The position numbers were made by a program, and so were the translations under genes. Positions 10,604-55,612 of a stretch of 64,000 nucleotides of DNA are shown piece by piece. The notes under the pieces were generated by a model that worked only from the letters and a program-made list of their open reading frames with translations, was not told where the DNA came from and did not search any database. The first letter of the stretch is position 1. The number at the start of each line of letters is the position of its first letter. Origin of the DNA: Prorocentrum cordatum (Eukaryota); the NCBI GenBank assembly GCA_963575745.1, contig CAUYUJ010000226.1, positions 496,001 through 560,000 of the forward strand, in the 5' to 3' direction.

Positions 10604-11264
10604 GGGGGAGGAAGAGGAGGGATAGTAGGAGGAGGAGGTGGACTGGAGGAGGAGGATTAGGAGGAGGAGGAGGAGGAGGGGATGATGGTGATGGTGGTGA
10701 TGATGATGCTGCTGATGATGATGATGATGATGATGTTGAATATTATGATGTTGCTGCTGATGATGCTGATGGTGGTGATAGTTATGGTTTTGCTGCTGGT
10801 GGTGTTGGTGATGCTGATGATGGTTACGATGCTGATGGCGAGTAGGATGAAGATGATGATGAAGCTGAAACTGATGATGTTGATGATGGTTATGACGATG
10901 CGGATGCCGATGATGGTGATGATGGTAGATGTGCTGATGATGTTGATGATGTTGTTGATGATGTTGATGATGATGCTGCTGCTGATGATGATGCTGCTGA
11001 TGCTGATGTGGATGTTGTTTCTGATGCTGAAGCTGATGTCGACGATGATGCTGATGCTGATACTGATGGTGCTGATGGTGATGATGATGATGCTGCTGAG
11101 GATGATGCTGATGCTGCTGGTGATGCTGTTGATGTTGTTGATGATGCTGACGCTGCTTATGATGATGATGCTGATGACGATTATGACGATGATGATGCTG
11201 CTGATGCTGCTGCTGCTGCTGATGATGATGATGGTGATGACGATGCTGATGCTGATGATGTTGC

Positions 11265-11305
<41 letters not shown>

Positions 11306-11520
11306 ATGACGATGATGATGATGATGATGATGATGATGCTGATGCTGATGCTGATACTGATACTGATGCTGATGATGAGTTTGATGATGGTGATGGTCAT
11401 GGTGATAGTGATGATGATGATGAGGAGGAGGAGCAGGAAGAGGAGTTGGAGGTGGAGTTGCAGCAGGAGGAGGGGGAGGAGGAGGAGGAGTTGGAGGTGG
11501 AGGAGCAGCAGGAGGAAGAG
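9690..11520. repeat. (AAT)n, long (GGA)n and in-phase (GAT/GCT/GGT)n trinucleotide arrays
   Basis: Directly visible. Confidence 0.95.
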
Positions 11521-13276
11521 GAATGTCAACAGTGTGTTGTGCAAGAGGGGAAAAAGGTGTGGCTTGCTGGACGGGAAGCGACACGCCCCTCCTCAGCCTC
11601 CTGGCGGGCCGGCGGGGCGCGGCAGCAGCCAAGCCGCGGGTTCTGCGCTGCGGACGTGCTCCCCGGGCGGCGGCGCCATCCGGCCGATGGGGAGGGCGAG
11701 GGGCAGCAGGGCGCGAGCGGGCTGGGGGGGTGGGGGGACCCGCGGCTCTCAGGCGCGTGGCCGCCGCCTCCGCCTCCGCCTCCGCCTCCGCCTCCGCCTC
11801 CTCCTCCTCCTCCTCCTCCTCCTCCTCCTCCTCCTCTCCTCGGGCGAGGTTCCATGCTCCGTGGGACGGGCGACGGGCGACGGGGAGCGAGGAGGGGCGA
11901 GGAGGGGCGGGGCGAGGGGGGGAGACGAGGAACGCTGAGAAAGAGGGGGGGGGGGTGACGGCGAGGGGCGAGGCATCGGGGGGGCGAGGGGGGAGGGCAG
12001 GTCTCGTTCCCTGCCGCCCCGCGCTTCCTCGCCGCAGGCCGAGCGCGCTCGTTCGCCGTGTGGCTCGCTCGGTCTCCCTCCCTACCCCCTTCCTCGCTCC
12101 TTCTCGTCTCTCCCTACCCCTCGCCCCTCTTGGCTCCCCTCCCTCCCTCCTCGCCCCCTCCTCCCTCCTCCCTCCCTCCCCCCCCTCCCTCCCCCCCCCC
12201 TCCCTCCGCATTCCCTCCCTCCGCATTCCCCCCCTCCCTCCCTCCCTGGGCTCCTCGTCCCGCCGCGCCTGCGCTTCGCCCGCCCCCTCCGCCTCCCGCC
12301 CCGCCTCCTCCGCACCCCCCTCCCCTCCAGTGCCGCAGCAGGCCGTGGAGCCCATGCCCCCCCCCCCCCCCTCCCTTCCCTCTCGGTGGCCCCGCCTGCG
12401 GGGCGGGGGTGTGCATCGGCATCGCTCGGACGTGTAGATCTTTTCCTCGGCGGGGACCATCGAGGAGCATCTTGGATCATCCTGCGGAGAGTACAGGCAC
12501 GGAGCCGAAAACGCGCACGGGGAATGGACGTCCGAGCGATGGCGAGAGGCTGGGGGATCATCTCGAGGGGCGTCGGCAGGCGGTGGATGTCGATATACAC
12601 GGCATTCCGCGGTTGCGGATCAGCGTGAGGGGGCGGGCGTTTGGTGGGTCGCGGGGTGGTCGCGGCGTGGGTCGCGGGGCGGGTCGCGGGTGGGACGACG
12701 ACACCAACAGCGCAGTAACAGCTGGCATCCCACAACCCCGCTTCCGCCACGCGCCCAGGGACACCGCATGCCCGCTGGGCCCCCTCTGACCAGATGCGCC
12801 GCCCGCCGAGGTACCCGAAGTCCGACCCCTCGGGCGGCGGCTGGGGATACGCCCCCGCCCCGGACCTCTCCCTCAAGGGAGGAAGAAACACCCGGACCGG
12901 ACAACTGGCGTTTACTAGACGACCCTGGGCGTTTATCTCACAGCCCTGCCCCGTTCAACTCCTTCTTTGGGCGCTTTTACTCAACGACTTCGCGTGTCGG
13001 GGTGGTTCTTATGGGGGTGTTTTTTCTGGACCTCTACTGCCCCCCCCCCGAGCCTAAAACAGGGCTAGGATCGGGATAAATCGCTCCAGAGCGTTCCGGA
13101 GCGCTCTCAGAACCTTCCGGAACGCTCTGGAGCGGCCGCGGCGCCCACTACGTCCCCCAAACCCGCCGATTCTCAGAGATTTCGAGCTCTCCCGATCCGA
13201 TTGTGTCCCGATCTCCGATCTTCGCGCCGTGTTACGAGCCGCCGCGGGCCGGGCGGGGCGCGGCCCTCCGCTCCAG

Positions 13277-33936: not shown

Positions 33937-35980
33937 GGCTTGCGTCGAATCAGGAAAGAACACATGATTTCTTGCATCCGCGCCTGCAGGCCCCCCCGGC
34001 GGCGCCTCCGGCGCCAGGATGCGGCCCGCGGGGCGTTGCCAGAGGCGCCGCCGGGGGGGCCTGCAGGCGCGGCTGCAAGAAATCCGCGGGGAGCGCTAAA
34101 AGTTTATGTTTATGTGGTTCTAGGCTTGCAGTCTCCCCTGAGGACATCTTCTTCTGATGCTTCTTAGTGACGTCTTGAGGGCCACCTTGGGCTATCTGGA
34201 GCGACCTTGGAGTAGGGATCGTTCGCCGATCGGGCGTGCTGGCCGCTCCCCGCCCCGCCCCCCGTGCAGACCCAGGGGGCTGGGGGAGATGAGACCCCTC
34301 CTCCCTCCTCTCCTCCTCCTCCCTCCTCCTCCTCCCCCTCCTCCTCCCCCTCCTCCCCCCCCTCCCCCCTCCTCCCCCTCCTCCTCCTCCCCCTTCCTCC
34401 CCCCCCTCCTCCCCCCCCTCCTCCTTCCCCTCCTCCTCCCTCCTCCTCCTCCTCCTCCTCCTCCTCCCCGAAGGAGCAGAGGGGGGTCGGAAGAGGAAGC
34501 TCGCCAGACCACCTCGGCCCGCAGGGGTGGTGGGATTGATGATCGCGGGTGCGCACCTCACATCGTGCGTCGTGCTGAACCCCCCCCCCGCCGCTACGAC
34601 TGCACACGCACGTCACACCTCGTGCGCACATCACACATTCGCTGCCGGCAGGGATGGTGCAGGTGCCGACATGCTGCCCGACGGTGGTTGTGACGGTCAT
34701 TGGCGCGGACCCGGCCCGTGCGCGTCGTGCACGTGGCTCATGCAGCGCGCCTGGCATGCCCGGAGCACGCGGCACAATTGGCGCACATGGCGTATTTGGC
34801 GTAGCAGGTGGGCTCGCGCACCCCACCCGTGTGCGCGTGGCGCTCTTGGCACGCGTGGCTCTCCAGGCACACGTATTGCCTCCCAGTTGTTGTCCTTCGG
34901 ATGGCGGCCTCTGGCTGAGTCGGTAACCGTATCCGCTCCCACACTCGCCTCTATATCCTGGCCTCCTGAAGGATGACAAAGCCGATCTGTGCCCTTTGGG
35001 GTAAGAAATGCCTTGGACACGATTTCGAGCTTCATTGCGACACCTTTTGGTATGGTATCGACACATCCGGCCCCGAACCCCGAACTTGTAACGGAATAGT
35101 CAGGTGGAATCACGGCGGTGAAGAATTCTTGCACGGTGATTGTTGGGCCCTGATTTTGCGATGCAGGACATCATGTTCCGAACCCCAGATGGATCACCGC
35201 TGCGATGGAAACAATTGCGGCAATGCACATGGTGGATGTGTTGAAGGTCTGATCGTTCTGGTGAGTTCCGCTGCATTCATTCCGCAGGGGCAGGGCGACA
35301 GGGAGGGTGGAAGAGGTCGAGTAGAAGACGAGGACGACGAGAAGAAGGAGGAGGAAGACAGCCCCCGGCTGCACAATGCACCGGCGGCTATTATAGTTGT
35401 GCGGGCGAACTCGGGGGCAACGATGGGCGGGGGTAGGCATATGGGGGGGTGCATCGGCCCCCAATCGCCCATTGATCGCCGATAGGGGCCCGATAGCCCC
35501 AACCTGCCCCGGAAGGTGCGGATTCACTGTCGGAGGCCTATCGCCGACCTATCGGCGAGGCATCGCCGGTTCCAGGTCGATGCATACCCCCCCTGTGCCA
35601 GTCCCCCCCCCCCCCCCTACCGTTGCCCCGCACGGACAGGCGCCAATGTGGACTCCTGTCCGAGGCCCGAAAACCATCACTTCACTAATTTTGGGCCCCA
35701 GGGCCCACTGAGGCCCCAGGGGCCCCAGATTAGTGAAGTGATGTTTTTTCCCACGTAAGGACTCCGAAATTCATCACTTCCCTAAACCGAGCCCAGGACG
35801 AAAGTCAGGGGCCGAATTGCTGCTGTGAAGCCACATCGGCCTCGTATCCGCTGCGCGTGCCGTGCCGATGCCGCAGCGTCGCCGTGCAAACCCACGACGT
35901 CGCGGCTCTGCCCCGTGTCCCTGATGACGCGCCCGCTGCCCGAGGGATGGCAACGACTGCGCCTCAGGCTCATGAAGGTA

Positions 35981-36144
35981 CACCTCAGGCGATGCTCAAG
36001 AAAACCTAAGTTTTCGTCCAGAGTCTCGATTATTCTTAACTTTCCAATGTAAATCCCAAGATTTTGATAGAAGTTCTGGGTTTTATTCAAGTTCTGAGAC
36101 TATGAATTTCTTAATCCATGATTTCTTAAGCATTTCGCAGGGTG
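35981..36144 (+). mobile_element. MITE family A copy 1 (TA TSD; TIR CACC.......ATGCTTAAGAAA), inserted in the 5' part of the LINE ORF; candidate introner
   Basis: TA|CACC...TTTCTTAAGCATTTCGCAGGGTG|TA; removal restores frame from ATG 35947 into the 36149 ORF. Confidence 0.85.
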
Positions 36145-36148
36145 TATA

Positions 36149-39100
36149 TTGGGAGCTCCTCCACATAAGGTACCACGGCTACTACCTGAACGCGTTCACT
36201 CCCCTGATGGTCAACTGGTTGATGGCTCGTCTGGCACAGCCACTGCCTCAGCCTCCTTGCCTGATGGGGCTCCTGTAGCTCCTCGGGTGGATGTCGACAT
36301 GCCCCGCTTGCAACGTCCTGAACGTTCACGCAGCCCGCGTCTTCATCCTGCTCAACAGCCTGGTGTTCAACAGCCTGGTGTTCACCAGCCTGGTGTTCCA
36401 CAGCATGGTGGTGAACACCACTCTGGCGACCGTGATAGTGGTAGCCCTGCTGTGGATGCTCCTGTTGTTGCTGAGGATCCAACGGTCGCAGCCGATGGCA
36501 CCCCTGAGGTGCCACGGCGGGGTCAGCGTATGCCCTGCCAACGCGACATCGTCACGGTCAACTCGAGCTCTCACGGCCCGCTTATGGGCTTCCTCTCGCA
36601 CTTCCAGGGCGTCGCCGTCATGGGCCAAGAGACTCGGGTGATTGAAGGCCGAGTTGGTGCTATTCAACATCAGGCTTTGGACCTCGGCTGGCATGGGCTA
36701 TGGGCCCCTGCGTTACCGACGATTGGCACGTCCGACTCTGCCAACACGTCGGGCGTGTGCGTGCTCGTCCCCACCCACATTGGGATCACTGCGCCGCCTG
36801 GGAAAGGCGGCCACATTCTCTACCCTGGTCGCGCGGTGGCTGCACATGTTCACTGGGGCGTACCTGGTGGGCTCATTCTCGTTAGCGTGTACTTGGTTCA
36901 GGGCCTCGGCGTGGCTGATGAGAACATCAAGATCCTGTGGGAGCTCGCCCAGCGGATCGCTGAGTGGAATGCCATGGGCATCGACTGGGTTCTGGGTGGT
37001 GACTGGAACTCTGGCATCGAAACCGTCAATGTTCGGGGCTGGATCGAAGCGTTGGCAGGGATCTCATTGGTCCCTCCAACTCCGACCTGCTACACTGACA
37101 ACGGCAACACCACCATCGACTACTTCATCTTGACCTCGAACCTGGTCTCCCGCATTCACGCCCAGGCGATGGTTCGATGGGATTGCAAGACCATTCCCAA
37201 GCCGCACTACCCTGTGCAGCTTACCCTTCACGGGCATGATCGGCCTCGGTGGTGCTGGGTCCCCGATGAACCCCAACCGCTGCCGGCTGCACTTAAGGTG
37301 GGATGCGCTCGTTTTCCCTATCCCTGGCATTGCCTTCGTGCATTTTTCGACCATGCTGAACGAGTCCAAGAGGGGATGATGCACGATGGGAGAGGTGGTC
37401 AGTCCACCTCCCCACCACAGTACTACGCTGATCAGGCCTCCCGACGGACCTCCTCGGCTTCACCTCCGCCCCTGTCTCCTCTGCTGGTGCTACGGGACGT
37501 TGTCCTTCAAGGTATTGACTATGTGTTGGCGGGCAGGCACGACCTTACGCAGTCTGATGCCACTCCTTTTGTCGGACGCCACGGACCTCCACAGTTCAAA
37601 TGGCGCACGATGAAGTGGAGGCCCCCACGCAAACGCCAAACATGGGATCAGCGTGCCCACGACTGGGCCACCATCAAGCGCTGGGTCCAGCACCTGCGCT
37701 CGGAGCGGTCTCGACTTGATCGCTATGCCCTGCGGCTCCAGGCGATGGAGGACTTGGGCATGGCGCAGGTTCCCCACTACCAGAAGGTGGCGCAGGTCAG
37801 GCTGCAGGTGGAGCAGGTCTGCCGTCAGATCCTTAAGCATGACACGATCATTGATCGACTTGACCCCAGCCAGCTGGCCTTCTTCCGCGAGGGCGCGGAT
37901 GGCTTTGGCTCCGACCACTTCGATGACATGGCGGACGCTATTGAGGGACATGCCCAGGCCATCCTGTTGCAGGCCCAGTCCCAGGTCCGCTGCGTCTGGC
38001 TCCAGTGGGCACGCGGCGCCTTTCTTGGAGGAGCGAGCATGGCACGCGTTACCTCCAAGGCACGGGCTGCCCAGGAGGTATCAGAGCATCGTGATGACGT
38101 TCAGCCACATGTGCTTGCCAACCAGGTCCTCGACGGCTGGATTGACATCTGGGAGCGACATGGGTCGATGGAGCTTCAAAAGCCCCACGACGCGGATACT
38201 TGGGATAGTCTGCCTCCCATTGGAGTGGATGTGCTCCGTGCAGCTATCCGCTCGTTCTCATTGACAACGGCGGTGGGCCCTGACCGATTGGCTCCACGAC
38301 AATTTGATCAACTGAGCGATGCTGCGCTGCGGGCGCTCGCGCGTATGTTCATGCTGTTCGAGGACTGCCTCCTTTGGCCTGATGGTCGCATCCTCAGCGA
38401 GCTCGTCAGATTACCTAAGCCAGAAGGGGGGCACCGACTGATTGTGCTCAGCTCCACGGTCATACGGGTCTGGGCAAAGGCGCGGCAGCCCCTTTCAGCG
38501 GAGTGGCAGGCGAGGCATCCCTGCGAGGAAATGTGGGGGACCAGAGGGGGCCAGACCTCTTCGGACTCTGCATTCTCCCACAGCCTTGAGCAAGAGGTTG
38601 GCGACCTCCTCGACGAGCACACTGCGACCATCCTGCTGGACATGAGCAAGTGCTTCGAGATGGTCAAGCACGACTCCCTTCTCTTGGAGGCGCGCGAGAT
38701 GGGCTACTCTCTCCGCCTGGCCTGGATGCTGATCCAGCTGTACCGACAGCCACGGTGCATCAGGGCCTATGGGAGCTGGTCCCGACCTTACTCTGCCAGG
38801 CAGGGCATCATTGCAGGCTGTTCGCATGCCACCTACCTGCTCTACCTCCTGATGTACCGTGCCGTTAAGCGGGCTGCCGCGATTGGTCCAACCATGCGGC
38901 CCAGAGCCTTGGTGGACGATGTCGGCCTTCAGATGGTCAGCTCCGATCCAATGGACTTGCTCACCCTGGGCAGCGCTGCCTCCTCGTTTGCCGCTTGGGC
39001 GTTGGAACGTGGCCTCATTCTGAACACCAAGAAGTCGGCGGTGGTCGTGGGATCGGTTCGAACCCGACTCGAGCAGGACCGCCTCCTGCGGCGCAAGAGT

Positions 39101-41926
39101 GGGTGCGTATTGTGGGCACGATCCACGGACGCAGTCAGGAGTTTCCCTCGTGCCAGCCATATGCGCAACCTAGGGCATGAGCTGCATGGGCCCCAGGTTC
39201 GTCGTGCTGTGGCCAAGGCGCGCATGGCCAAGCTACGTGGACGACGTCACCGTTTCCGTGTCCTACAACGTGCGGTGTGTAGGCGCACTACTACGCTGTG
39301 GCTCATTGGTGCTATGCCTGCCTCGGCCCACGGGGCTGGAGTTTCAGTGGTTACCGATGATTGCCTTCGCGAGATGCGTAGGTTCGCGGCTATTCTCAAC
39401 GGAGCCCCTGGCACCTCCAACGTCGGCCTCACCAGCTACCTGATGACTCACTGGGCTGAGCAGTACGACCCTATCTTCGGTGCGACTGTCGACCTTGTGA
39501 TGCGGTGCGCAGGCTGGGCTTGGGATGCTCGAATCTCTCTGGGCCGGCTCTGTCGTGCCTGGCAAGCGCTACAGCACCTCGGTCCCACCAGATGGGATCA
39601 GGTACGGGGCCCCCTCGGCGCTACTCTTCTTACTCTACGGCGCATTGGATGGGGCATGGTCTCTTCCCAGACTCTCCGCGATGATCTGGGACGCCACTAC
39701 GATCTTCTTCATGCGTGCCCCGCCGACCTCAAGCCTTACCTGCTTGAAGGCATCCAGCGCTGGCAGCATGAGCGGCTTCAGCGACACTGGTACACCAGCA
39801 CGGGTGCGCAGTTGTGGCACAGTGGCATGCGCTATGCCATCAAGGGCATCCGCCACCCTTGTCGGCTTGGAGCCCTACAGGCCCATTGGGCCGACAACCT
39901 TCCCATCCCAATACGTCGCGACATGAAGCTTAACCAGCCCATGAGGCCGTGTCGCGCATGTGGTGCTCAGTTGGATAGGCGCACGTGCTGGGGCCATGTC
40001 TTCTACGACTGTCCTGGCCTCTTGGCCGAATGCGATGGGGTGCCAGACACCGCCATGCCATCAGTGGACACAGCCATGCCGCGACACGGACAGACGCCAT
40101 TGGCAGGCGATGGGACGTCAATCGTACCCACGCATTCAGGCAACACCAGTCGGGTCTGTGATGAAGGAGTCCCTGAAGCTCCCCATCGTGCTGTTCACTC
40201 TCTGCCGGCTGGTGGTGGTGCCAGCCCAGGCGCGGCGCGCAGTCCTGACGCCATGGAGGAGGAGTCGTTCTTCCCTGCGGTTGGTGATGCACCCGATGAC
40301 GCCATGGATGACGAGCCTCCACAGGAACCTGGCGACGATGTGAGCATGCAGGATTTTGGGCTGGACTCTGCAACTGCGACTGGCACCCAGAGCGTCGGCG
40401 CCACGATTCGCTCAAAGGACCATGCTTTTCTTGCCATCCCTCCGCGGTTGCTGGAGGTGCGTGAACATCTCCGCGCAGCAGGGCTGGGCAGTGGAACTCC
40501 CAACTACGAGCAGACGTGCCTCGTTTACGGGGCACCCGAACCCCCTGCTTACTTGCCGTCCATGGGCACCGTTGGCAACGAGGTTCTCCACTGGGGCGAT
40601 GCTCAAGGTACTTGGGGGCCCACCTCCTACACGGATGGCTCTGGCTATGACTCGAACATGCCAGAAATTCGTCGATGTGGTCAAGCCGTTGTCCAGCTGG
40701 ATCCTTATTGCTGGATGCCCATTCGGGCCGTGTGCGGCCCTCTCCCGTACATCGTTCAGACGGTGGGGCGTGCTGAACGGTTTGCCATTAAGATGGGACT
40801 CGACATTCATCCCGAACATCGAGAGTTCGTCACGGACCTCAAGAGTTCGGTGAAGGAGGCCGACCAGTGGGGGGCGCCATTGGCCTGCAGCAGGTCCAAG
40901 CATGCGCGCGTATGGCGGGATATCCTCACTGCAGCTCTGGAGCGTTCCTCAGTGGACGCCCCGACGTTCCGATGGACCCCTGCACACCGCTCGGCCGCTG
41001 ACCTGTTGGAGGCGGCCCCGCTGGACATCTGTGACTGGATTGGCAATGCTTAGGCGGACTACTTTGCGAGGTTGGGCGTTGTTCAGCACGCCATGCCCCG
41101 CTCCTTGTCGGACTCGCTCAAGGCAGCCATGAAGCAGCACAGGACGGTGCTCCAGTTGGTCTCTCAAGCCTGCCTGAGGGTTATCCGTTACCAGCGGTTT
41201 GGGCGAGACGACGCCCCAGTGACGCCGCTCAGTCAGCAGATGGTCCCTGTGGTCTTTGGTCGTCCTGAGGATCATGACCTCTGGTTCTGCGCCCAGCGAG
41301 GCCAATGCCGATGTCGCGGGTGTAATGCTACAGCCTCTACCGCGGCGTCCTTGGCGACTCTACGCTCAGGTTCGCGCAGGAAGTGCACTCCCGCGCGGAT
41401 CACACGAGCAATGGCGAAGGTGTTCTTCGAGACGACTCGCCTCTCCTGGACTCCGCTAGCCGATGGGCGAGTTCAGGTGGCCGTCCGCTGTGCCGACCTA
41501 CAACGCGAAGCACAAGAGCCTGGTGTTCACCAGCCTGGTGTTCCACAGCCTGGTGGTGAACACCACTCTGGCGACCGTGATAGTGGTAGCCCGTCTGCCG
41601 ACGCTGACAGTGATCCAATGCAGCAGGCTTTCCGTGAGCTTGGGCATGACACTTTCTTGGCCTACGGCGTCCACTGCTGCAGCAAGTGTGCAGGCATTTG
41701 TGCGCAAGCACGGCCGCACGCTGCGCGGAAGTTGCGAACGTTGTGCGAGGGCTTCTCGGTGAACCCCACGACGAAGCAGGCTCAGACTACCGTCATTGAT
41801 CGTGTTCGTCGTGGCCTTCCTCCTCGACAACGGGGCGGAGCTTCTGCAACAGGGTGTGCCGACACCCTGGGCGACGGAGACGCCAGTCTCCCAGCCCAAA
41901 GGCGCAACCAGGTACCAGATGCCTAG
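36149..41926 (+). CDS. LINE polyprotein: AP endonuclease (~36545-37230), reverse transcriptase (~38270-39180), CCHC knuckle (~39950-40015), RNase H (~40620-41090), C-terminal Cys/His motifs; one in-frame TAG at 41051-41053
   Basis: APE: VTVN, QET, VSVY, GGDWN, TIDYF, PHYPV; RT: GPD, LPKPEGGHRLI, LDMSKCFE, GIIAGCS, LVDD; CRAC..H....C; RNase H: YTDGS, TVGRAE, FVTD, WTPAH, GNA*AD; ORF 41072-41926 is in the same frame. Confidence 0.9.
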
Positions 41927-43460
41927 TGCGCAGTCGGATTGCGTCCCTGGCCTACGCTAACGACTGGAGAAAGATGTACTGGGTCGACGGGGTTGGCTCC
42001 CACGACCTGCCCTGCCTGGTGCTTTGAGCGGGCAGCCTGCCTGCTCTTCTCTCCTCGTCGACGCGGCTGGACGCTTCTGTGTTTTTTCCCGCTTGGCTCG
42101 TCGCCACCGCTGGATCCATCACCTTTCTGTGGTTTGCGGCATAGCCGTCGGCCACTTGCTTCTCTCCCTCCCCTCGGCGGGCGGGCGGCCGCGGCCGCCG
42201 CTGACCGCGCTGGGAGGCGCTGCAAAGCTGCAAAGCTCCTCCCTCGTCCTCCTCCTCCTCCTCCTCCTCCCTCGTCTCGCGACCCATCGGGCGCCAGGGC
42301 TTCGCCGCGGGCACAGCTCGGGGGCGGCCGAGAGGGGGGGGACGGACGAAAGACATCGGCAGCCTCGCGTCGTGTCGACCGGCGGCGACCCCGCCGCCGC
42401 CGTTCCAGAGTGGAGCGCCGCCGTCGACCCAGGATTGGTGGACGTTCCGCGGTGCGACGTCTCGGACGCGGCCGATCGTTCCAGGTGGAATGACCCCGCG
42501 GTGTCGGGAACGGGCGCCGAGGTCGTCACGCTACGAGCCTGCCGTAGGTGTGTGTGTGTGTGTGTGTGTGTCTGTGTGTTGTGTGTGTGTGCGTGTGTGC
42601 GTGTGTGCGTGCGTGTGTGCGTGTGTGCGTATGTGTGTGTGTGTGTGTGCGTGCGTGCGTGCGTGAGTGCGTATGTGTGTGTTGTGTGTGCGTGTTGGGG
42701 GGTATCTTGTCGCTGGAGCGGAGTTCGCCGCTTCGCCGCTGACGAAGAAAGTTGTGTGTTGGGGGGGAGACCTTGGCCGGGGCCGCGCAGGATCTCCCTA
42801 GATCTCATATTTCATGGCGTTTTCTGCTCACTTCGGTGCGTCCCGTGGCCCCCCACCGCTGCGCCGCGCACGTGCCTCCAGCCATGACCTGCCAGCCCCC
42901 TCAGCGGCGGAATCCAAACTCTGCCCTCGCCGATCAAAGGTTTCAAGCAACTCGATGAGCCCAACCCCCGCCCCCCATCGATTCAGGAGAAGCGATGCTT
43001 GGTGGGGGCAATGTGGGTAGACGATTAAAGCAGTATCCCCGCCCCTTCTGCCCCGGGGGGAGCACGTCGCATTGTGTCTGGCATGCGGCTCAAATCTACG
43101 GGCCGGAGCTGTTTCTTGAAACGTCCCCGCCCCCTCACTTCGCCACGTCCTAGCAGAAGCAAGCCCGCATTGCAGATGGTCAGATGGTAGGTGCGGAGGA
43201 AGGCAGGAGGAGGGAGGCGGGACGCCACTTCGGATTGTCAGCCCTCAGGCCATCGTCGTCGTCCTCGTCCTCGTCGTCGTCAGTTTTTCCCAGGAGGACT
43301 GCACTGCGCCTACGCAGCACCCCACCGCCCAACATGCAATCCGCAGCAGTTCGCCATTGTCTGTCGTCGTCGTCCACCATGGACATTGCAAGGCGCACGC
43401 CTACGCAGCCCCCCCCCAAAAAATATGCCATCCGCAGTTCGCCGTCGCCGTCGTCGTCGT

Positions 43461-43507
<47 letters not shown>

Positions 43508-43679
43508 TGCCAGGGTTGAAAGACGCTTACCCGCCACCGTTCCTTCCCCCCCATGTGCATGCCATCCGCAGTTCGCCGTCGTCGTCGTCTTCATCCTCAG
43601 TCGTCGCCCCCCAGGACCGCAAGACGCCTATGCAGCACCTCCCCCATAGGGCATCTGCAGTTTGCCGCCGTCGCCTCCC

Positions 43680-43771
<92 letters not shown>

Positions 43772-44099
43772 CGTCGTCGCCCCCCAGGACTGCAAGGCAC
43801 TTACACAGTATCCCAACCCCACCCATCGGGCCTTTGCAGCTCGCCGTTGTCGTCATCGTCGTCGTCCGCGACTTCGTCCTCGTAGGGAGCCGCAGCCGCC
43901 ACCCCAGCCGCTCCGAATTCTCAGCCCTCGGGCCCCCCCTGGCCTCCCGAAACGGCTCAGGGGCCAACCCGCATTGCCCGCCCCGCCTGCCGGGCGCCTC
44001 GGCTAGCTATGGCGGGGGCCATGGGACCGGCGAAACGATCTGTTCAACGTCCCGGGGCTGAAGGGACGGGGATCAATGCAAACGGGGTCATCCAATGCG

Positions 44100-44230
44100 C
44101 CGGATCTTGCAGGATCATGCAGAGCCAGGGCTGCCATGACCTGGGTCAACGTGCAGGATCCTGCAGGAGACCGCAGGATCTTGCAGGATCCTGCAGGGCC
44201 TGACGGACCCCAGGTTCCCGCTGACCCGGG
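44100..44230. repeat. Dispersed repeat rich in palindromic GCAGGATCCTGCAG units; related copy at ~51170-51285
   Basis: Shared GATCCTGCA..AGCCAGGGCTGC...TGACCCGGG order. Confidence 0.65.
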
Positions 44231-44345
44231 CTGGTGGATCCCCGAGCACCCCCCTTCCAAGTGGTCTTTTAGCCGTGTACCTCCACTGGGGTTCGGATGT
44301 CGCCGCCTACCCCACCTCGTGGACGCGCCCGCATGGGCGCATGGG

Positions 44346-44516
44346 TCGGGGGTGGACAAACCTCCTACCCTGACACGTCGATTAGTGAATTGTCCGTTTT
44401 CGGTTCTCGAGAGGGCGCCACGGCCGTCATTTTCCAGGCTTGCGCCCGCCAGGTTTGTGCCCGAGGTCGTTTTCACTAAACCACGTTTTACTAAAGGGAG
44501 GTCTGTCCATCCCCGA
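44346..44516. mobile_element. MITE family D copy 1 (TIR TCGGGGnTGGACA, 5-bp TSD ATGGG)
   Basis: TCGGGGGTGGACA...TGTCCATCCCCGA; closely similar to 52528-52698. Confidence 0.85.
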
Positions 44517-44773
44517 ATGGGAGTGGCCCTCCTGGTCGCTCACCACCCATGCACCACCCCACCCCAACCCAACGCGAAGGCTTCAGCTTGCCCTCCATTT
44601 CCAGTGGGGGGGGCGTCGGGGAGCATTGAACAACTGCATATGATGAAACACGTACCCCCTCCCGAAATTCGGGTCTTCGGGTTGGGTTGGGGTGGGTCTG
44701 GTAGGTAGTCCGTCGCCTCCCGGCGCAGACCGCGCGCCCCCGCTGCGCGCGCCCCGCCCGCGCGCGCGCGCAG

Positions 44774-44822
44774 GCGCGAGGCCGAGCGGGGCTCGCTGGA
44801 GGCGGAGCTGGAGGCCATGCAG
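44774..44822 (+). CDS. Host gene micro-exon (REAERGSLEAELEAMQ), GC donor
   Basis: GCAG|G acceptor, CAG|GC donor, all codons end in G/C, coiled-coil-like peptide. Confidence 0.7.
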
Positions 44823-45351
44823 GCTGGTTCGCGGGCGCAGCGGCGCAGACGACGACCACCACTTGGGAGCCCTCCAGGGGTCCCGGGTGGCCCAGCACGG
44901 GCTTCCAGCAGTGGCGATTCGTCCTGGCTCGACTATAGAGGCCCGCCAAAGGATGCTCTAAGATCGCAGGCCTAGAGGTTGACGCCAATACCAATATCGG
45001 CGGTGTGCCTCCACCGAGGGAAGAAGATCCCGATCTCGGTGATGATGGTAATATTCTGGCTTCCAAGATAACCGACGGACCGACATATTACCACCAACAC
45101 CGAAATCTAGGAGCATCTTCCCCCTGTGGATGCACCCCCCTGTGTTGGTGTTGGTGCCCCTTTCCAGGCCTTCAATGAGAGCCTTCTGTGGTGTGCACGA
45201 AAGGTTCTCAGAACCTTGCTGGCTGAGACCGTCCTGTTCTAACACGTCGGGCTTTCGTTCTAAGAACGCTGTGCTCCCGTTCTTAGGACAGCTGTGGGTT
45301 CTAGGAACATTTCGTGGTAGGCCTCTGGGATTGCCGGGTCGGTTCGTGGTA

Positions 45352-45516
45352 CACCTTAGGCGATGCTTAAGAAAACTTAAGTTTTCGGCCAGAGTCTCGA
45401 TTATTCTTAACGTTTTAATGTACATCTCAAGATTTTAATAGAACTTCTGGGTTTTTATTCAAGTTCTGAGACTATGAATTTCTTAACCCATGATTTCTTA
45501 AGCATTTCGCAGGGTG
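45352..45516 (+). mobile_element. MITE family A copy 2
   Basis: Same TIRs, TA TSD, preceded by G; removal regenerates TTCGTGGTAGGCCTCT, also present intact at 45311. Confidence 0.85.
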
Positions 45517-46148
45517 TAGGCCTCTATAGGAGCCGGCTGGAGGTCTCGGGTGGCCCAGCAGAGGCTCCGGCGACGAGGCGGAGAGGGGCGCCCTGCTCCC
45601 GGAAGACGGGGGCTCCGTGTTTTCGGCCCCCGGGGGCCGCTCCATTGGGCCCCATGGGCTGTCTCGAGGCGGATCGGGGGTGGAAAGCTGCACCGGCTGG
45701 ACCCCAGGGGGCGTCCAGGAGCCGATTCCGAGCGGAGTTGCTCTCATCCCCGCTGCCAGATCGATTTTCTCGGGGCCCGTCCAACGCAGATCCCCCGGCC
45801 ACCTCCATCCAACTGCCACCATTAGCTAGTTATCACTGCTACGGCCGGCGCTGGAAAGAGGCGTGCGATGCGGCGCCGCTGGCCCGCTTATTGAACACGC
45901 TATCTTCCACCTTGGAGGTCGCGTGCACCGAAAAAGCCCAAGCAGGGGGATGACGTGCATTGAAGTGGCCCGCGCGCTGGTGGATCGCCTCGCAGGGGCA
46001 GCGTGCGTTGCGGAGATCGATGTTGCACGCTGTCTTCCAGATGCCAACCGTACTACTTCGGCCACTACAACTACCATTGCTACCCGTGCGACTGCAAGTA
46101 ATACTACTACTCGTACTCCTACCTCTAAGTACTTGTACTTGTTCATCG

Positions 46149-52527: not shown

Positions 52528-52698
52528 TCGGGGCTGGACAGAACCCCCAACAGTGACACGTCGATTAGTGAATTGTCCGTTTTCGGTTCTCGAGAGGGCG
52601 CCGTGGCCGTCGTTTTCCAGGTTTGCGCCCGCCGGGTTTGGGCCCAAGTCGTTTTCACTAAACCACGTTTTGCTAAAGGGGGTTCTGTCCATCCCCGA
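52528..52698. mobile_element. MITE family D copy 2, TSD GATGA, inserted in a (GAT)n array
   Basis: GATGA|TCGGGGCTGGACA...TGTCCATCCCCGA|GATGA. Confidence 0.85.
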
Positions 52699-53035
52699 GA
52701 TGATGTTGATGTTGATGATGCTGATGGTGATGATGATGATTGGTGGTGATGATGGTAATGGTGATGATGGTGATGGTATGATGATGATGATGGTGATGAT
52801 GATCATGGTGGTGATGGTCAGGGTGATGATGGTGGTGATGATGGTGGTAATGGCGATGGTGATGATGATGATGATGATGATGATGTTTCTGATGATTCTG
52901 AGAAGGATGAGGATGATCATGATGATGATGATGTGATGATGATGACAACGACGGCGGCAACGACGATGATGATGGTGACAATGTTGATAATGATGATGAT
53001 GATGATGATGATGCTGATGATGATGATGGTAATGC

Positions 53036-53090
<55 letters not shown>

Positions 53091-53254
53091 GATGATGATG
53101 GTGATGGTGATGGTGATGGTGATGCTACTGACGATGATGATGTTGATGCTGATGATTGTGATCATGCTGATGGTGGCGATACTGGTGGTGGTGACGACGA
53201 TGATGCTGTTCATGGTGATGAGGATGATGATGCTGATGATAATGATGATGATGC

Positions 53255-53286
<32 letters not shown>

Positions 53287-53480
53287 GTGATGACGAGGAC
53301 GATGATGATGCTGATGATGATGGTCATGAGCATGATTATGATGATGGTGATGATGATGATAATGATACTGAGGATGATGATGGTGATGGTGATGGTGATG
53401 ATGATGATGGCTATGGTGATGATGATGACGAGGAGGAGTAGGATAGTAAATGTGAAGTTGTTGATGATGACAGCGATGGC
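52699..53480. repeat. (GAT)n-based trinucleotide array
   Basis: Directly visible. Confidence 0.95.
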
Positions 53481-53983
53481 GACAACGATGGCCAGTGACA
53501 GAAATACTGCGAACGCGGTGAGTGATGGTGGTGGGTGGCGATCACCGCCACCACCACTACAGTCAATCCGTGTAATTAAGGACGCACGATGCACATTGCA
53601 AGGGCCTTGGAATGCCATGCCGACGCGCTGCCAGCGGGACGAGGCCAGCGAAAGCGGCTAAGGATGGGCCGAAGGGGAAGGATGAAAGGGCTGCCTTTGA
53701 AAGTTGTTCATTCCTACTGCGCGGGTTGACCGTCTCGTCATCACCGCCCACCCTCCGTTCATCAGATGCAAGAGGAGCCCGCGCCGTCTCATCCTTCCTA
53801 CGCGCGTTGACCGTATCGTCATCACAACCCACCCTCCGTAGTATGAGGTGCCAGAGTAAAGCCGGACCGAGATATGACATCGAGCTCGATTCGGGGAGGG
53901 TACCCTTGGAAGTTATCTTTGTTCTGGCCGGCGGAGGGTCTCATGTTCTTGAGGGATGTTCTTTTGGCCTAGGTCCGATTGTA

Positions 53984-54152
53984 CACCTTAGGCGATGCTT
54001 AAGAAAACTTACGTTTTCGGCCAGAGTCTCGATTATTCTTAACGTTTCAATGTAAATAATCCTATGAGTTTGAATGGAAGTTTTGGGTCTTTATTCAAGT
54101 TCTGAGACTATGAATTTCTGAACCCATGATTTCTTAAGCATTTCGCAGGGTG
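53984..54152 (+). mobile_element. MITE family A copy 3, followed by a ~145-bp segment plus (GGA)n shared with copy 4
   Basis: Same TIRs, G-TA site. Confidence 0.85.
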
Positions 54153-54579
54153 TAGACCCCTGGCTTTGCGCCGCCTTCCCTGGCAGCGCCCGATCCGCTG
54201 CCCGTCCCTTCGCCGATGCCGGGCGGAGGGTCGCCCACGGCGCTCCGCCATGATAGTGAGGAGGCTCGGTCGCAGCTCGAAACTCGAAAACAGAGAAGGA
54301 GGAGGAGGAGGAGGAGGAGGAGGAGGAGGAGGAGGAGGGGTGTAGGTCCGATTGTAGCCCGCTCCGGCCCCCTCGGCCGCCGCACCCCCCTGCACGTCCC
54401 GCTCGGGGGGGAGGCTGCCAGCGGTGCCCCCGGCCCAGGGTGGCTCCAGCGGCCCCCCTCGACCCCCGTTGAGCAGGAGCGATCCTTTTCGATCGTCTTC
54501 CTGCTCCTCCTTCTCCTCCTCCTCCTCCTCCTCCTCGGCCGCCGTCTCTTCCTCCTCCTCCGCCTCCGCCTCCGCCTCC

Positions 54580-54642
<63 letters not shown>

Positions 54643-54649
54643 ACATCAG

Positions 54650-54730
<81 letters not shown>

Positions 54731-55193
54731 GCACCTCCTCGGCCGCCTTTTCCTCCTCCTCCTCCTCCTTCTCCTCCTCCTCCTCCTCCGTCCTCCTCGA
54801 TGCTTCGCCCCAGCTGATCGCTCAGTTCTGGAGCCCCTTATGGGCCCCCCTGGGCCTCGCGATGGGTGCTCCATGGCGGCCGCGGGGCTGCCTCGGAGAT
54901 CCTGGGAGCAACCTGTTGCCAGGGGCACCCCGGGCACTCCGGGCACTTGGGAGCCCCTGGGGCCATCTGGGCCTCGCGAGGGGTGCCTCGTGGAGGCCGT
55001 GGGGGCCTCCTCGGAGATCCTGGAGGCGCCCTGCTGCCATGGAGGCAGGCGACGCAGAAGCACGGGCGCGGCTGCGCAGCAAGTCGTGCGCAGGCCAAGC
55101 TGCTTGCGCAGGACTGCGCGCGCACGCCCTCGCTGCAGTGTGGCGGGCCGCGCCAGCGGCCATCCGCGGACGGCCGCGACGCCATCCTGCGTA

Positions 55194-55355
55194 CACCTTA
55201 GGCGATGCTTAAGAAAACCTAAGTTTTCGGCCAGAGTCTCGATTATTCTTAATGTTTCCATGTAAACTCTAAGATGTTCATAGAACTTCTGGGTTTTAGT
55301 CAATTTCTGAGACTGAATTTCTTAACCCATGATTTCTAAAGCATTTCGCAGGGCG
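55194..55355 (+). mobile_element. MITE family A copy 4
   Basis: Same TIRs (3' end GGCG), G-TA site. Confidence 0.85.
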
Positions 55356-55612
55356 TAAACCCCTGGCTTTGCGCCACCTTCCCTGGCAGCGCCCGATCCG
55401 CTGCCCCTTCGCCGAGGCCGGGTGGAGGAGTCGCCCACGGCGCTCCCCCACGATAATGAGGAGGCTCGGTCGCAGCTCGAAACTCGAAAACAGAGAAGGA
55501 GGAGGAGGAGGAGGAGGAGGAGGAGGAGGAGGAGGAGGAGGAGGAGTAGTTCGCGATGGTGATGCTGGTGGTGGTGATGGCGCTGGCGGACCCGCGGCCC
55601 CCGCCCCCCGAG

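What the first reader, a model, noticed from the sequence alone, without database searches (positions are those of the whole stretch)
35978..36146. A ~165-bp TA-MITE that appears to be a self-cleaning, frame-preserving intron (introner) inside a LINE ORF
Seen: the element TA|CACC...TTTCTTAAGCATTTCGCAG-GGTG|TA sits after GAAGG, creating a strong AAG|GTACAC donor (35978), and carries its own pyrimidine-rich CAG|G acceptor (36140) 4 nt from its end. Splicing GT..AG gives CAT GAA GGG TGT ATA TTG, against CAT GAA GGT ATA TTG for the empty site. That is a net +3 nt, joining ATG 35947 (MATTAPQAHEG-C-ILGAPP) in frame to the 1634-aa ORF. Established: DNA-transposon-derived introners use one inbuilt splice site and one co-opted from the target site (described in Micromonas and Aureococcus). 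Inference: this is an intron-generating family, here giving a retrotransposon a spliceosomal intron that retrotransposition would erase, leaving a 3-nt scar.
Basis: partly seen in the sequence, partly recalled or inferred. Interest (0 to 1): 0.8.

Follow-up and report, generated by a model that had tools for sequence, protein, structure and literature searches.

The report
Small TA-flanked transposon inside LINE gene
A 164-base mobile DNA element from a many-copy family has landed near the start of an already broken retrotransposon gene in what looks like a dinoflagellate genome; its ends look like splice sites, but nothing available shows that it is removed as an intron.

Summary
At 35979-36146 a 164-bp AT-rich element (CACC...GGTG ends, imperfect terminal inverted repeats) sits between two TA dinucleotides.

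New evidence: one contig of a public DNA(?) run bridges 35977->36144, skipping exactly 166 nt (element plus one TA). This is an empty site, so the element is a real transposon insertion.

The host ORF is a LINE (endonuclease, reverse transcriptase, RNase H) whose nearest named relatives are from Prorocentrum cordatum. This copy carries an in-frame TAG (41051) inside the conserved RNase H region. It is at single-copy depth, and the insertion lies in a non-conserved N-terminal leader.

The other three copies sit in simple-repeat, non-coding DNA. No RNA data could be reached, so splicing is untested.

Transposon-derived introns, including mariner-type families with a 2-bp target duplication and dinoflagellate families, are already described.

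Verdict: a genuine miniature transposon (MITE) insertion; the introner reading is plausible (about 0.3) but unproven.

The parts
35979..35980 (+). left TA target-site duplication of copy 1 (G at 35978 precedes it)
   Evidence: the empty-site contig skips 166 nt
35981..36144 (+). MITE body, copy 1, 164 bp, G+C 0.37, CACC...GGTG termini
35981..36004 (+). 5' terminal inverted repeat (about 24 nt, imperfect)
   Evidence: 18 of 30 positions match the reverse complement of the 3' end in copy 1; 21 of 30 in copies 2 and 3; the ends pair in the RNA fold
36121..36144 (+). 3' terminal inverted repeat, containing the pyrimidine-rich stretch and CAG (36138-36140) proposed as acceptor
36145..36146 (+). right TA target-site duplication of copy 1
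35978..36140 (+). hypothetical intron GT...CAG, 163 nt (not shown to be spliced)
   Evidence: arithmetic; in-frame open junction
35947..35977 (+). first 10 codons plus one base of the LINE reading frame (only ATG in the open stretch 35737-35977)
36141..41050 (+). LINE ORF downstream of the element: endonuclease, reverse transcriptase, start of RNase H
41051..41053 (+). in-frame TAG inside the conserved RNase H region of the LINE
41054..41923 (+). continuation of the LINE reading frame after the TAG (290 codons), homologous to the C-terminus of relative P0003
   Evidence: E 4e-14, P0003 residues 1514-1750
45350..45518 (+). copy 2 (TA + 165-bp body + TA), G at 45349
53982..54154 (+). copy 3 (TA + 169-bp body + TA), G at 53981
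55192..55357 (+). copy 4 (TA + 162-bp body + TA), G at 55191; 3' end reads GGCG

Best explanation
The element is a non-autonomous cut-and-paste DNA transposon (a MITE). It duplicates a TA target and belongs to a many-copy, AT-rich family in a G+C-rich, Prorocentrum-like dinoflagellate genome. A transposase supplied in trans would recognise the imperfect ~24-nt terminal inverted repeats (CACC...GGTG) and insert the 164-bp body at a TA. This mechanism is inferred from the anatomy; no transposase was found.

Copy 1 is a fairly recent insertion at codon 11 of a low-copy LINE. That LINE copy is already disabled by an in-frame TAG in its RNase H region. An otherwise near-identical sequence without the element still exists in another public DNA data set.

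At this locus the insertion is most simply an unselected disruption of a non-conserved N-terminal leader. Read unspliced, the frame from ATG 35947 stops after 20 codons, and the next in-frame ATG is at 36299. On this reading the splice-like ends (a donor made of G plus the T of TA, and an inbuilt CAG|G) are incidental, not a demonstrated function.

Shown: the MITE anatomy, the copies, the empty site, the identity of the LINE and its stop codon. Inferred: the trans-acting transposase, the recency of the insertion, and the lack of selection for the frame.
For: - **Anatomy and copies:** TA/TA flanks and inverted ends in 4 of 4 copies. The 4 pattern matches compare with 0.00 expected.
- **Empty site:** one X1 contig joins 35977->36144, skipping 166 nt with 3 ambiguous letters, at depth 7.32. 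The adjoining LINE contigs have depth 12.7-15.
- **Many copies:** summed contig depth in X1 is 1,202 and 10,320 over the two element bins, against 12.7-21.9 over the LINE body. The tool warns this is not a copy number; I read it only as 'many copies'.
- **LINE identity:** weak Pfam RVT_1 (E 4e-6, 27.1 bits against a cut-off of 29.6) and Exo_endo_phos (E 0.0035). The best ESM Atlas clusters score 0.96 and carry Exo_endo_phos, RVT_1 and RNase_H, at 1831-1953 aa. Five of 6 sequence relatives are named Prorocentrum cordatum. Identity to P0003 is 36% over 1217 residues.
- **Broken LINE:** the 290 codons after the TAG at 41051 align to P0003 residues 1514-1750 (E 4e-14), directly continuing the alignment that ends at P0003 residue 1511.
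- **Non-conserved leader:** homology to relatives begins only at P0001 residue 114 (P0003) or 143 (P0002).
- **Other copies are non-coding:** copies 2-4 are flanked by simple repeats, and their flanking ORFs translate to low-complexity runs. None of the 106 other long ORFs scanned had a Pfam hit near them.
- **Weak G preference elsewhere:** in run X5, of the 11 contigs shown ending at the 5' edge of copy 2, 5 keep the G and 6 do not. P(>=5 of 11) is 0.26 at G = 0.321.
- **In-frame pairs are common:** 12 of 72 GT/GC/GA x AG pairs around the site are in frame and open.
Against: - G precedes the TA in 4 of 4 window copies (p 0.011; 0.033 for 3 independent copies). No mirror-image C follows the right TA (0 of 4), so a simple palindromic target preference does not explain it.
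- The CAG|G with an upstream pyrimidine-rich stretch is invariant in 4 of 4 copies. It fits the AG|G acceptor reported for 79.7% of P. cordatum introns (PMC10666404, passages).
- The AG sits in the one register that, with a G-TA donor, gives a net +3 nt.
- Dinoflagellates, including P. cordatum, are reported to hold many transposon-derived introns.
- The LINE's stop codon and low copy number say nothing about what the family does in host genes.
Confidence: 0.6

Rival explanations
1. Introner reading. The family is an intron-generating transposon. When it lands at G|TA in a transcribed sense strand, the G plus the T of the duplicated TA form a GT donor. The inbuilt pyrimidine-rich CAG|G, 4 nt from the 3' end, serves as acceptor. 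The spliceosome then removes 163 of the 166 added nucleotides, leaving one extra codon. At this locus that would restore the LINE reading frame from ATG 35947.
For: - The arithmetic and the open junction are confirmed.
- G-TA is present in 4 of 4 copies and CAG|G in 4 of 4.
- The AG|G acceptor and GT donor lie within the reported P. cordatum splice repertoire: GT 24.7%, AGG 79.7% (passages).
- Signatures of transposon-derived introns are reported in 2.4% of P. cordatum introns (supplement passage).
- In Polarella, one class uses the pre-duplication nucleotide plus the first duplicated nucleotide as the 5' splice site (Roy et al. preprint, parts 1-2 read).
- Mariner-type introner families with 2-bp duplications are listed in dataset sd07 of PMC12130899.
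- The inverted ends pair in the predicted RNA fold and bring the two proposed splice sites together (MFE -50.5 kcal/mol, z -2.54).
- All four copies are on the + strand.
Against: - Three of 4 window copies lie in non-coding simple-repeat DNA, so their G-TA and shared orientation cannot come from selection for splicing.
- Copies 3 and 4 share a right flank and are not independent.
- The dinoflagellate introner classes I read about restore the message exactly (element plus one duplication removed); none is described as leaving a 3-nt scar.
- In run X5, 6 of the 11 displayed 5'-edge contigs lack the G.
- The host LINE copy is nonsense-mutated and at single-copy depth, so the frame-preserving property has nothing to preserve here.
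- Four same-strand copies have only about a 1 in 8 chance probability, less striking still given the non-independence.
Confidence: 0.3
2. The 166-nt joint in run X1 does not come from an allele of this locus but from a second, paralogous copy of the LINE that never received the element. The insertion would then be old and fixed rather than polymorphic.
For: X1 differs from the window at 54 of 3999 positions on the longest LINE contig. Dinoflagellate genomes are rich in duplicated segments (general knowledge; PMC10666404 passages). Several X1 contigs near the LINE's 3' end, and the bridging contig, have about half the depth of the rest (6.2-7.3 against 12.7-15).
Against: Over 37548-41546 only one X1 contig, at one depth, is listed. 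Two diverged paralogues would be expected to give two. Either way the joint shows the pre-insertion sequence, so the transposon reading is unaffected.
Confidence: 0.25
3. The stretch is an ordinary, old spliceosomal intron of the LINE or of a host gene, or a retroposed SINE-like repeat, and not a DNA transposon.
For: It has GT...AG ends, is AT-rich and is about 160 nt long.
Against: It has an empty site of exactly element plus TA, inverted ends and TA/TA flanks in 4 of 4 copies at unrelated left flanks, and no A-tail. No Rfam match falls on the element; all 5 matches at E<=1 in 35500-36600 lie at 35670-35748, below their gathering scores.
Confidence: 0.02

Closest known systems
Stowaway-like / Tc1-mariner-type MITEs (TA target-site duplication)
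   Same: Short (about 165 bp), non-coding, AT-rich, with terminal inverted repeats, TA/TA flanks, many copies and an exact empty site.
   Different: The CACC...GGTG termini were not compared with curated Tc1/mariner or Stowaway termini. No autonomous partner or transposase was found. The superfamily assignment rests on the 2-bp TA alone; the link between TA and this superfamily is recalled knowledge.
Introner elements of Micromonas pusilla and Aureococcus anophagefferens (Huff et al. 2016; seen only through passages of the review PMC11282704; the paper itself is not held)
   Same: A short inverted-repeat transposon that would carry one splice site and co-opt the other from the target site.
   Different: The Micromonas elements have a 3-nt duplication. 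They carry the 5' site and co-opt the 3' AG from the duplication, so removal is exact. Here the duplication is 2 nt, the 5' site would be co-opted, the 3' site carried, and 3 nt would remain. Splicing is not shown.
Introner-like element classes of Polarella glacialis and Symbiodinium (Roy et al., bioRxiv 10.1101/2020.10.14.339549; parts 1-2 of 4 read)
   Same: Dinoflagellate host. The 5' site is taken from target-derived nucleotides beginning with G and the 3' AG from the element end, followed by exonic G. One class uses the nucleotide before the duplication plus the first duplicated nucleotide as donor.
   Different: The described classes have duplications of 3, 4, 5 or 8 nt; none has 2. They are defined from thousands of annotated, expressed introns. 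Here the only copy inside a reading frame is in a dead retrotransposon, and the AG lies 4 nt inside the element end.
Mariner-classified introner families with 2-bp duplications in dataset sd07 of Gozashti et al. 2025 (PMC12130899; supplement rows seen)
   Same: Small inverted-repeat elements with a 2-bp (TA) duplication and GT...AG boundaries. The mechanism classes include "co-opt 5' carry 3'".
   Different: Those families come from fungi, Parmales, Pelagomonas, Symbiodinium sp. and wheat, and were defined on annotated introns. Prorocentrum does not occur in that paper's 14 held supplement files. Three motifs of this element are absent from the 12 of those files that were searched.
Introner-element-positive introns of Prorocentrum cordatum (Dougan et al. 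2023, PMC10666404; passages and supplement passages)
   Same: The same likely genus. [quoted passage not shown]
   Different: That study used a pattern search (inverted repeats of 8-20 nt, direct repeats of 3-5 nt within 30 nt of intron ends). A 2-nt TA would not have been counted, and no families are described in what I saw.

Membership tests
MITE (non-autonomous inverted-repeat DNA transposon) | Terminal inverted repeats | tested here: met
   18-21 of 30 terminal positions match between the 5' end and the reverse complement of the 3' end in the 4 copies; the ends pair in the fold.
MITE (non-autonomous inverted-repeat DNA transposon) | Target-site duplication of fixed length | tested here: met
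   TA on both sides in 4 of 4 copies. The empty-site contig skips body + 2 nt. A 3-nt GTA reading is not strictly excluded, but both ends have equal length (11 nt before the shared ATGCTTAAGAAA core) only under the TA reading.
MITE (non-autonomous inverted-repeat DNA transposon) | Short, non-coding, multi-copy | tested here: met
   162-169 bp bodies. Four copies in 64 kb. High summed contig depth in 4 of 4 runs laid.
MITE (non-autonomous inverted-repeat DNA transposon) | Empty (pre-insertion) site exists | tested here: met
   One X1 contig joins 35977->36144, skipping 166 nt.
Tc1/mariner superfamily | TA duplication | tested here: met
Tc1/mariner superfamily | Autonomous partner with a DDE/D transposase sharing the termini | not testable with these tools
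   No whole genome is held. Metagenome and viral scans with element motifs gave 0 loci.
Introner / introner-like element | Copies are removed from transcripts by the spliceosome | not testable with these tools
   No RNA run could be reached, and the single read-laying run is used.
Introner / introner-like element | Many copies coincide with introns of expressed host genes | tested here: inconclusive
   One of 4 window copies lies in a reading frame, that of a LINE. Three of 4 lie in simple-repeat DNA without recognisable coding sequence. Four copies in one window cannot settle the question.
Introner / introner-like element | Consistent splice-site dinucleotides carried or co-opted at fixed positions | tested here: met
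   G|GT at the 5' junction in 4 of 4 copies and CAG|G at 4 nt from the 3' end in 4 of 4. In X5, however, 6 of 11 displayed 5'-edge contigs lack the G.
Introner / introner-like element | Removal restores the message exactly or in frame | tested here: met
   By arithmetic only: 163 of the 166 added nt removed, net +3.
Non-LTR retrotransposon (LINE) with endonuclease, reverse transcriptase and RNase H | Endonuclease and reverse-transcriptase domains in one ORF | tested here: met
   Pfam hits fall below the curated cut-offs. They are backed by 36% identity over 1217 residues to P0003, which passes both Pfam cut-offs, and by ESM Atlas clusters scoring 0.96.
Non-LTR retrotransposon (LINE) with endonuclease, reverse transcriptase and RNase H | Intact reading frame (potentially active copy) | tested here: not met
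   In-frame TAG at 41051-41053 within the conserved region; homology continues after it.

The most novel reading that the evidence does not exclude
This is a TA-duplicating introner family of a Prorocentrum-like dinoflagellate that works imprecisely but in frame. It prefers or needs G before TA, builds its GT donor from that G and the duplicated T, and carries its own AG|G acceptor 4 nt inside its end. Every sense insertion in an exon would then become an intron that costs the host exactly one extra codon. Because it also lands in retrotransposon genes, retrotransposition of a spliced LINE transcript would leave a diagnostic 3-nt scar. That would give a direct genomic record of intron gain followed by reverse-transcriptase-mediated intron loss.
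Probability: 0.25. Interest if true: 0.55.

Novelty: new member of a known kind. Interest (0 to 1): 0.3.

Why it matters
If the family is spliced as proposed, it would add a 2-bp-duplication, one-codon-scar variant to the known ways transposons create introns in dinoflagellates, the most intron-rich eukaryotes. It would also offer a traceable scar for intron loss through retrotransposition. As things stand, the solid result is more modest: a recently mobile, many-copy MITE family with an exact empty site, in a genome where transposon activity is thought to drive intron gain and genome growth. The concept itself (MITE-derived introns, including mariner-type and dinoflagellate families) is already in print, so even a positive result would extend a known kind rather than found a new one.

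Tried and rejected
- **Whole genome:** none is held for this window, so copies could not be collected genome-wide.
- **Sequencing runs:** no RNA holder is listed among the 11 runs.
- **Reads laid:** none of the 4 runs laid (X1, X3, X5, X8; kinds 'DNA?' or '?') showed a 35977->36141 (163-nt) joint among the joints displayed; 12 more joints were not shown. With no known RNA run, this says nothing about splicing. X3, X5 and X8 gave no cover over most of the LINE body.
- **Metagenome contigs:** 0 loci with a 22-nt invariant internal motif and 0 with a degenerate 5'-end pattern.
- **Viral contigs:** 0 loci with three patterns.
- **Earlier findings of this scan:** nothing by place, sequence or words.
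- **ESM Atlas on the CitMHS-like ORF:** only low scores of 0.75.
- **Protein search with the CitMHS-like ORF, to recover a host gene model and real introns:** 5 weak hits, none usable.
- **Protein search for shorter proteins matching the LINE's first 142 residues, to find other copies with an empty site or a scar:** 1522 candidates, none at E<=0.001.
- **Element motifs in the supplements of PMC12130899:** 0 occurrences in the 12 of 14 files searched.
- **'Prorocentrum' in the same supplements:** 0 occurrences in all 14 files.
- **'Prorocentrum' with 'miniature inverted' in the paper library:** 0 papers.
- **Huff et al. 2016 (PMC5684705):** not held.
- **Supplements not seen:** bioRxiv supplements, including Supplemental Dataset 1 of Roy et al., could not be seen and may list related elements.
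- **Rfam:** no match on the element.
- **Rejected, 3-nt GTA duplication with a CACTA-like element:** both ends are symmetric only under the TA reading.
- **Rejected, reverse-orientation splicing:** the corresponding AG in the other end would leave +2 nt, not +3 (read).
- **Rejected, other MITE families here sharing the G|GT...AG|G design:** the 171-bp family at 44346-44516 does not.
Full report
**What is there.**
- G lies at 35978 and TA at 35979-80. A 164-bp body follows at 35981-36144, starting CACC and ending GGTG, then TA again at 36145-46.
- CAG ends at 36140, 4 nt inside the body's 3' end.
- GT(35978)...AG(36140) is 163 nt. The body plus one TA is 166 nt. Both are 1 mod 3.
- Removing either puts ATG 35947 into the frame of the stop-to-stop ORF 36122-41050 (1643 codons).
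- The frame upstream is open from 35737, and 35947 is its only ATG.
- Read without removal, the frame from ATG 35947 stops after 20 codons. The next in-frame ATG of the long ORF is at 36299.

**It is a repeat family with transposon anatomy.**
- A 26-nt pattern from the 5' end finds 4 sites at up to 3 mismatches, against 0.00 expected from shuffles.
- blastn with the whole element finds the same 4 full-length copies and nothing else. All are on the + strand and 88-92% identical to copy 1. Pairwise body identities are 0.86-0.92.
- All 4 of 4 copies are flanked by TA on both sides and preceded by G.
- The two ends are imperfect inverted repeats, matching at 18-21 of 30 positions. A perfect 12-nt core lies 11 nt from each tip, which fits a 2-nt TA duplication better than a 3-nt GTA one.
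- Bodies have G+C of 0.35-0.38 against 0.61-0.72 in their flanks.
- As RNA the ends pair (MFE -50.5 kcal/mol, z -2.54, 1 of 200 shuffles as good), as expected for any MITE.
- No Rfam family matches the element.

**The empty site.** The window's whole genome is not held, so I used the one sequencing-run search and the one read-laying run.
- Eleven runs were listed and none is on record as RNA.
- I laid X1 (kind 'DNA?', 0.45 of the sampled words) and X3, X5 and X8 (kind '?') on 35600-45599 at 85% likeness.
- One X1 contig joins 35977 to 36144, skipping 166 nt, with 3 letters (GTA) that fit either side. Its depth is 7.32, against 12.7-15 for the adjoining LINE contigs.
- That is exactly the body plus one TA. 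None of the four possible placements of the cut ends in AG, so this is a DNA-level empty site and not a splice.
- The shorter side of that contig is only 37 letters. I infer, but cannot show, that the same data set also holds the filled form, either as a polymorphism or as a second locus.
- Summed contig depth over the two element bins is 1,202 and 10,320, against 12.7-21.9 over the LINE body. The tool warns that this is not a copy number; I take it only to mean many copies.
- X3, X5 and X8 also hold element copies in other contexts.

**The host ORF.**
- Pfam gives only sub-threshold RVT_1 (E 4e-6) and Exo_endo_phos (E 0.0035).
- The ESM Atlas places the protein, at score 0.96, with clusters of 1831-1953 aa carrying Exo_endo_phos, RVT_1 and RNase_H.
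- Of 6 sequence relatives, 5 are named Prorocentrum cordatum (best 47% identity).
- Relative P0003 passes the Pfam cut-offs for both domains and aligns at 36% over 1217 residues.
- The window's G+C of about 0.61 is close to the 59.7% reported for P. cordatum (PMC10666404, passages). From this I infer a Prorocentrum-like dinoflagellate.

Three things weaken the idea that a frame is being preserved here.
- First, the stop at 41051-41053 is a TAG inside conserved sequence. The alignment to P0003 runs to residue 1511 before it and resumes at residue 1514 with the 290 codons after it (E 4e-14). This LINE copy is therefore nonsense-mutated.
- Second, the LINE body is at single-copy depth in X1. A search for shorter proteins matching its first 142 residues found none. 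No other copies were therefore available in which to look for empty sites or 3-nt scars.
- Third, homology to relatives starts only at residue 114 or 143, so the insertion lies in a non-conserved leader.

**The other copies.** Copies 2-4 sit among microsatellites and other high-copy repeats. The ORFs around them translate to low-complexity runs. None of 106 other long ORFs gave a Pfam hit apart from a CitMHS-like one at 10661-11935. Copies 3 and 4 share 185 bp of right flank, so they are not independent.

**Is the splice-like design more than chance?**

For:
- G at -1 in 4 of 4 copies has p = 0.011, or 0.033 for three independent copies. It is not mirrored by C after the right TA (0 of 4).
- CAG|G is invariant in the 4 copies. 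It fits the AG|G acceptor of 79.7% of P. cordatum introns; GT donors make up 24.7% there.

Against:
- In X5, of the 11 contigs displayed at the 5' edge of copy 2, 5 keep the G and 6 do not (p = 0.26).
- With dinoflagellate donors (GT, GC, GA), 12 of 72 donor/acceptor pairs around the site are in frame and open.
- The G-TA and the shared orientation also hold for the copies in non-coding DNA, so they cannot come from selection for splicing.
- In reverse orientation the corresponding AG would leave +2 nt (read).

**Comparison with what is known.** Transposon-derived introns are well described.
- A survey reports 1,093 families in 201 species, about 82% of the classified ones being inverted-repeat DNA transposons (PMC12130899, passages). 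Its dataset sd07 lists mariner-type families with 2-bp duplications.
- In Polarella and Symbiodinium the classes have duplications of 3, 4, 5 or 8 nt. They usually take the 5' site from a G-initial duplication and the AG from the element end. One class uses the nucleotide before the duplication (Roy et al. preprint, parts 1-2 of 4 read).
- P. cordatum introns show inverted-repeat signatures in 2.4% of cases, by a pattern that requires direct repeats of 3-5 nt.
- Micromonas elements have 3-nt duplications and exact removal (review PMC11282704, passages). Huff et al. 2016 itself was not held.
- Prorocentrum does not occur in the supplements of the survey. No held paper pairs 'Prorocentrum' with 'miniature inverted'.

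This family is therefore probably undescribed, but it is of a known kind. The one unusual point, if it is spliced at all, is the 3-nt scar.

**Verdict.** No evidence of splicing could be obtained, the LINE copy is already dead, and the window's other copies are not in genes. I put the plain-MITE reading at 0.6 and the introner reading at 0.3.

Noticed in passing
window 41051-41923: The LINE reading frame has an in-frame TAG at 41051-41053. It then continues for 290 codons that align to the C-terminus of relative P0003 (E 4e-14). With this continuation the ORF would be about 1934 codons, matching the 1831-1953 aa of the ESM Atlas clusters. I read it as a nonsense mutation, not as the true end of the ORF.
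   Followed up: yes
window 36368-36460 and 41513-41605: A 93-bp stretch of the LINE's N-terminal leader recurs at 92% identity in the post-TAG C-terminal part. Both encode the same Gln/Pro/Gly-rich peptide. Its origin is unexplained.
   Followed up: partly
window 44346-44516 and 52528-52698: A second, unrelated MITE-like family of 171 bp (90% identical copies, G-rich inverted ends). Many contigs end at both of its edges, and it has the highest summed depth of the stretch in all four runs laid (17,902 in X1). It has no GT...AG design. The second copy sits inside a (GAT)n array.
   Followed up: partly
window 53981-54338 and 55191-55538: Copies 3 and 4 of the element share about 185 bp of right flank ending in a (GAG)n array. 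The 359-bp alignment is 89.7% identical overall. Their left flanks are unrelated, and their bodies are the least similar pair (0.86). This may be a composite unit or a repeatedly hit target; it is unexplained.
   Followed up: partly
window 35670-35750: A hairpin with perfect 14-nt inverted arms lies about 200 bp upstream of the LINE ATG. It gives only sub-threshold miRNA-like Rfam matches. X1 contigs end at 35708 and 35802, and depth there is about 169, so it is probably another small repeat.
   Followed up: no
window 44964-45171: Another many-copy repeat. Contigs of X3, X5 and X8 end at 44964 and 45171, and depth is in the thousands in X1. It lies directly upstream of element copy 2.
   Followed up: no
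window 45310-45326 and the target of copy 2 (45340-45351 with 45517-45530): The target site of copy 2 lies in a short local direct repeat. About 15 nt around the TA recur about 33 nt upstream.
   Followed up: no
window 52699-53428, 54499-54798, 42548-42695: Long microsatellites: (GAT)n of 730 bp, TCC/TCA arrays of 300 bp and (GT)n of 148 bp. The window as a whole is rich in trinucleotide arrays.
   Followed up: no
window 10661-11935 (+): This is the only host-gene-like signal among the 106 long ORFs scanned: a CitMHS (citrate transporter family) match, E 2.3e-9. A protein search returned no close relative of similar length.
   Followed up: partly
window 41278-42279: Runs X3, X5 and X8 (three differently coded organisms) each hold contigs about 98-99% identical to the LINE's 3' end and the sequence just downstream, but give almost no cover over the LINE body. 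The reason is unknown.
   Followed up: no
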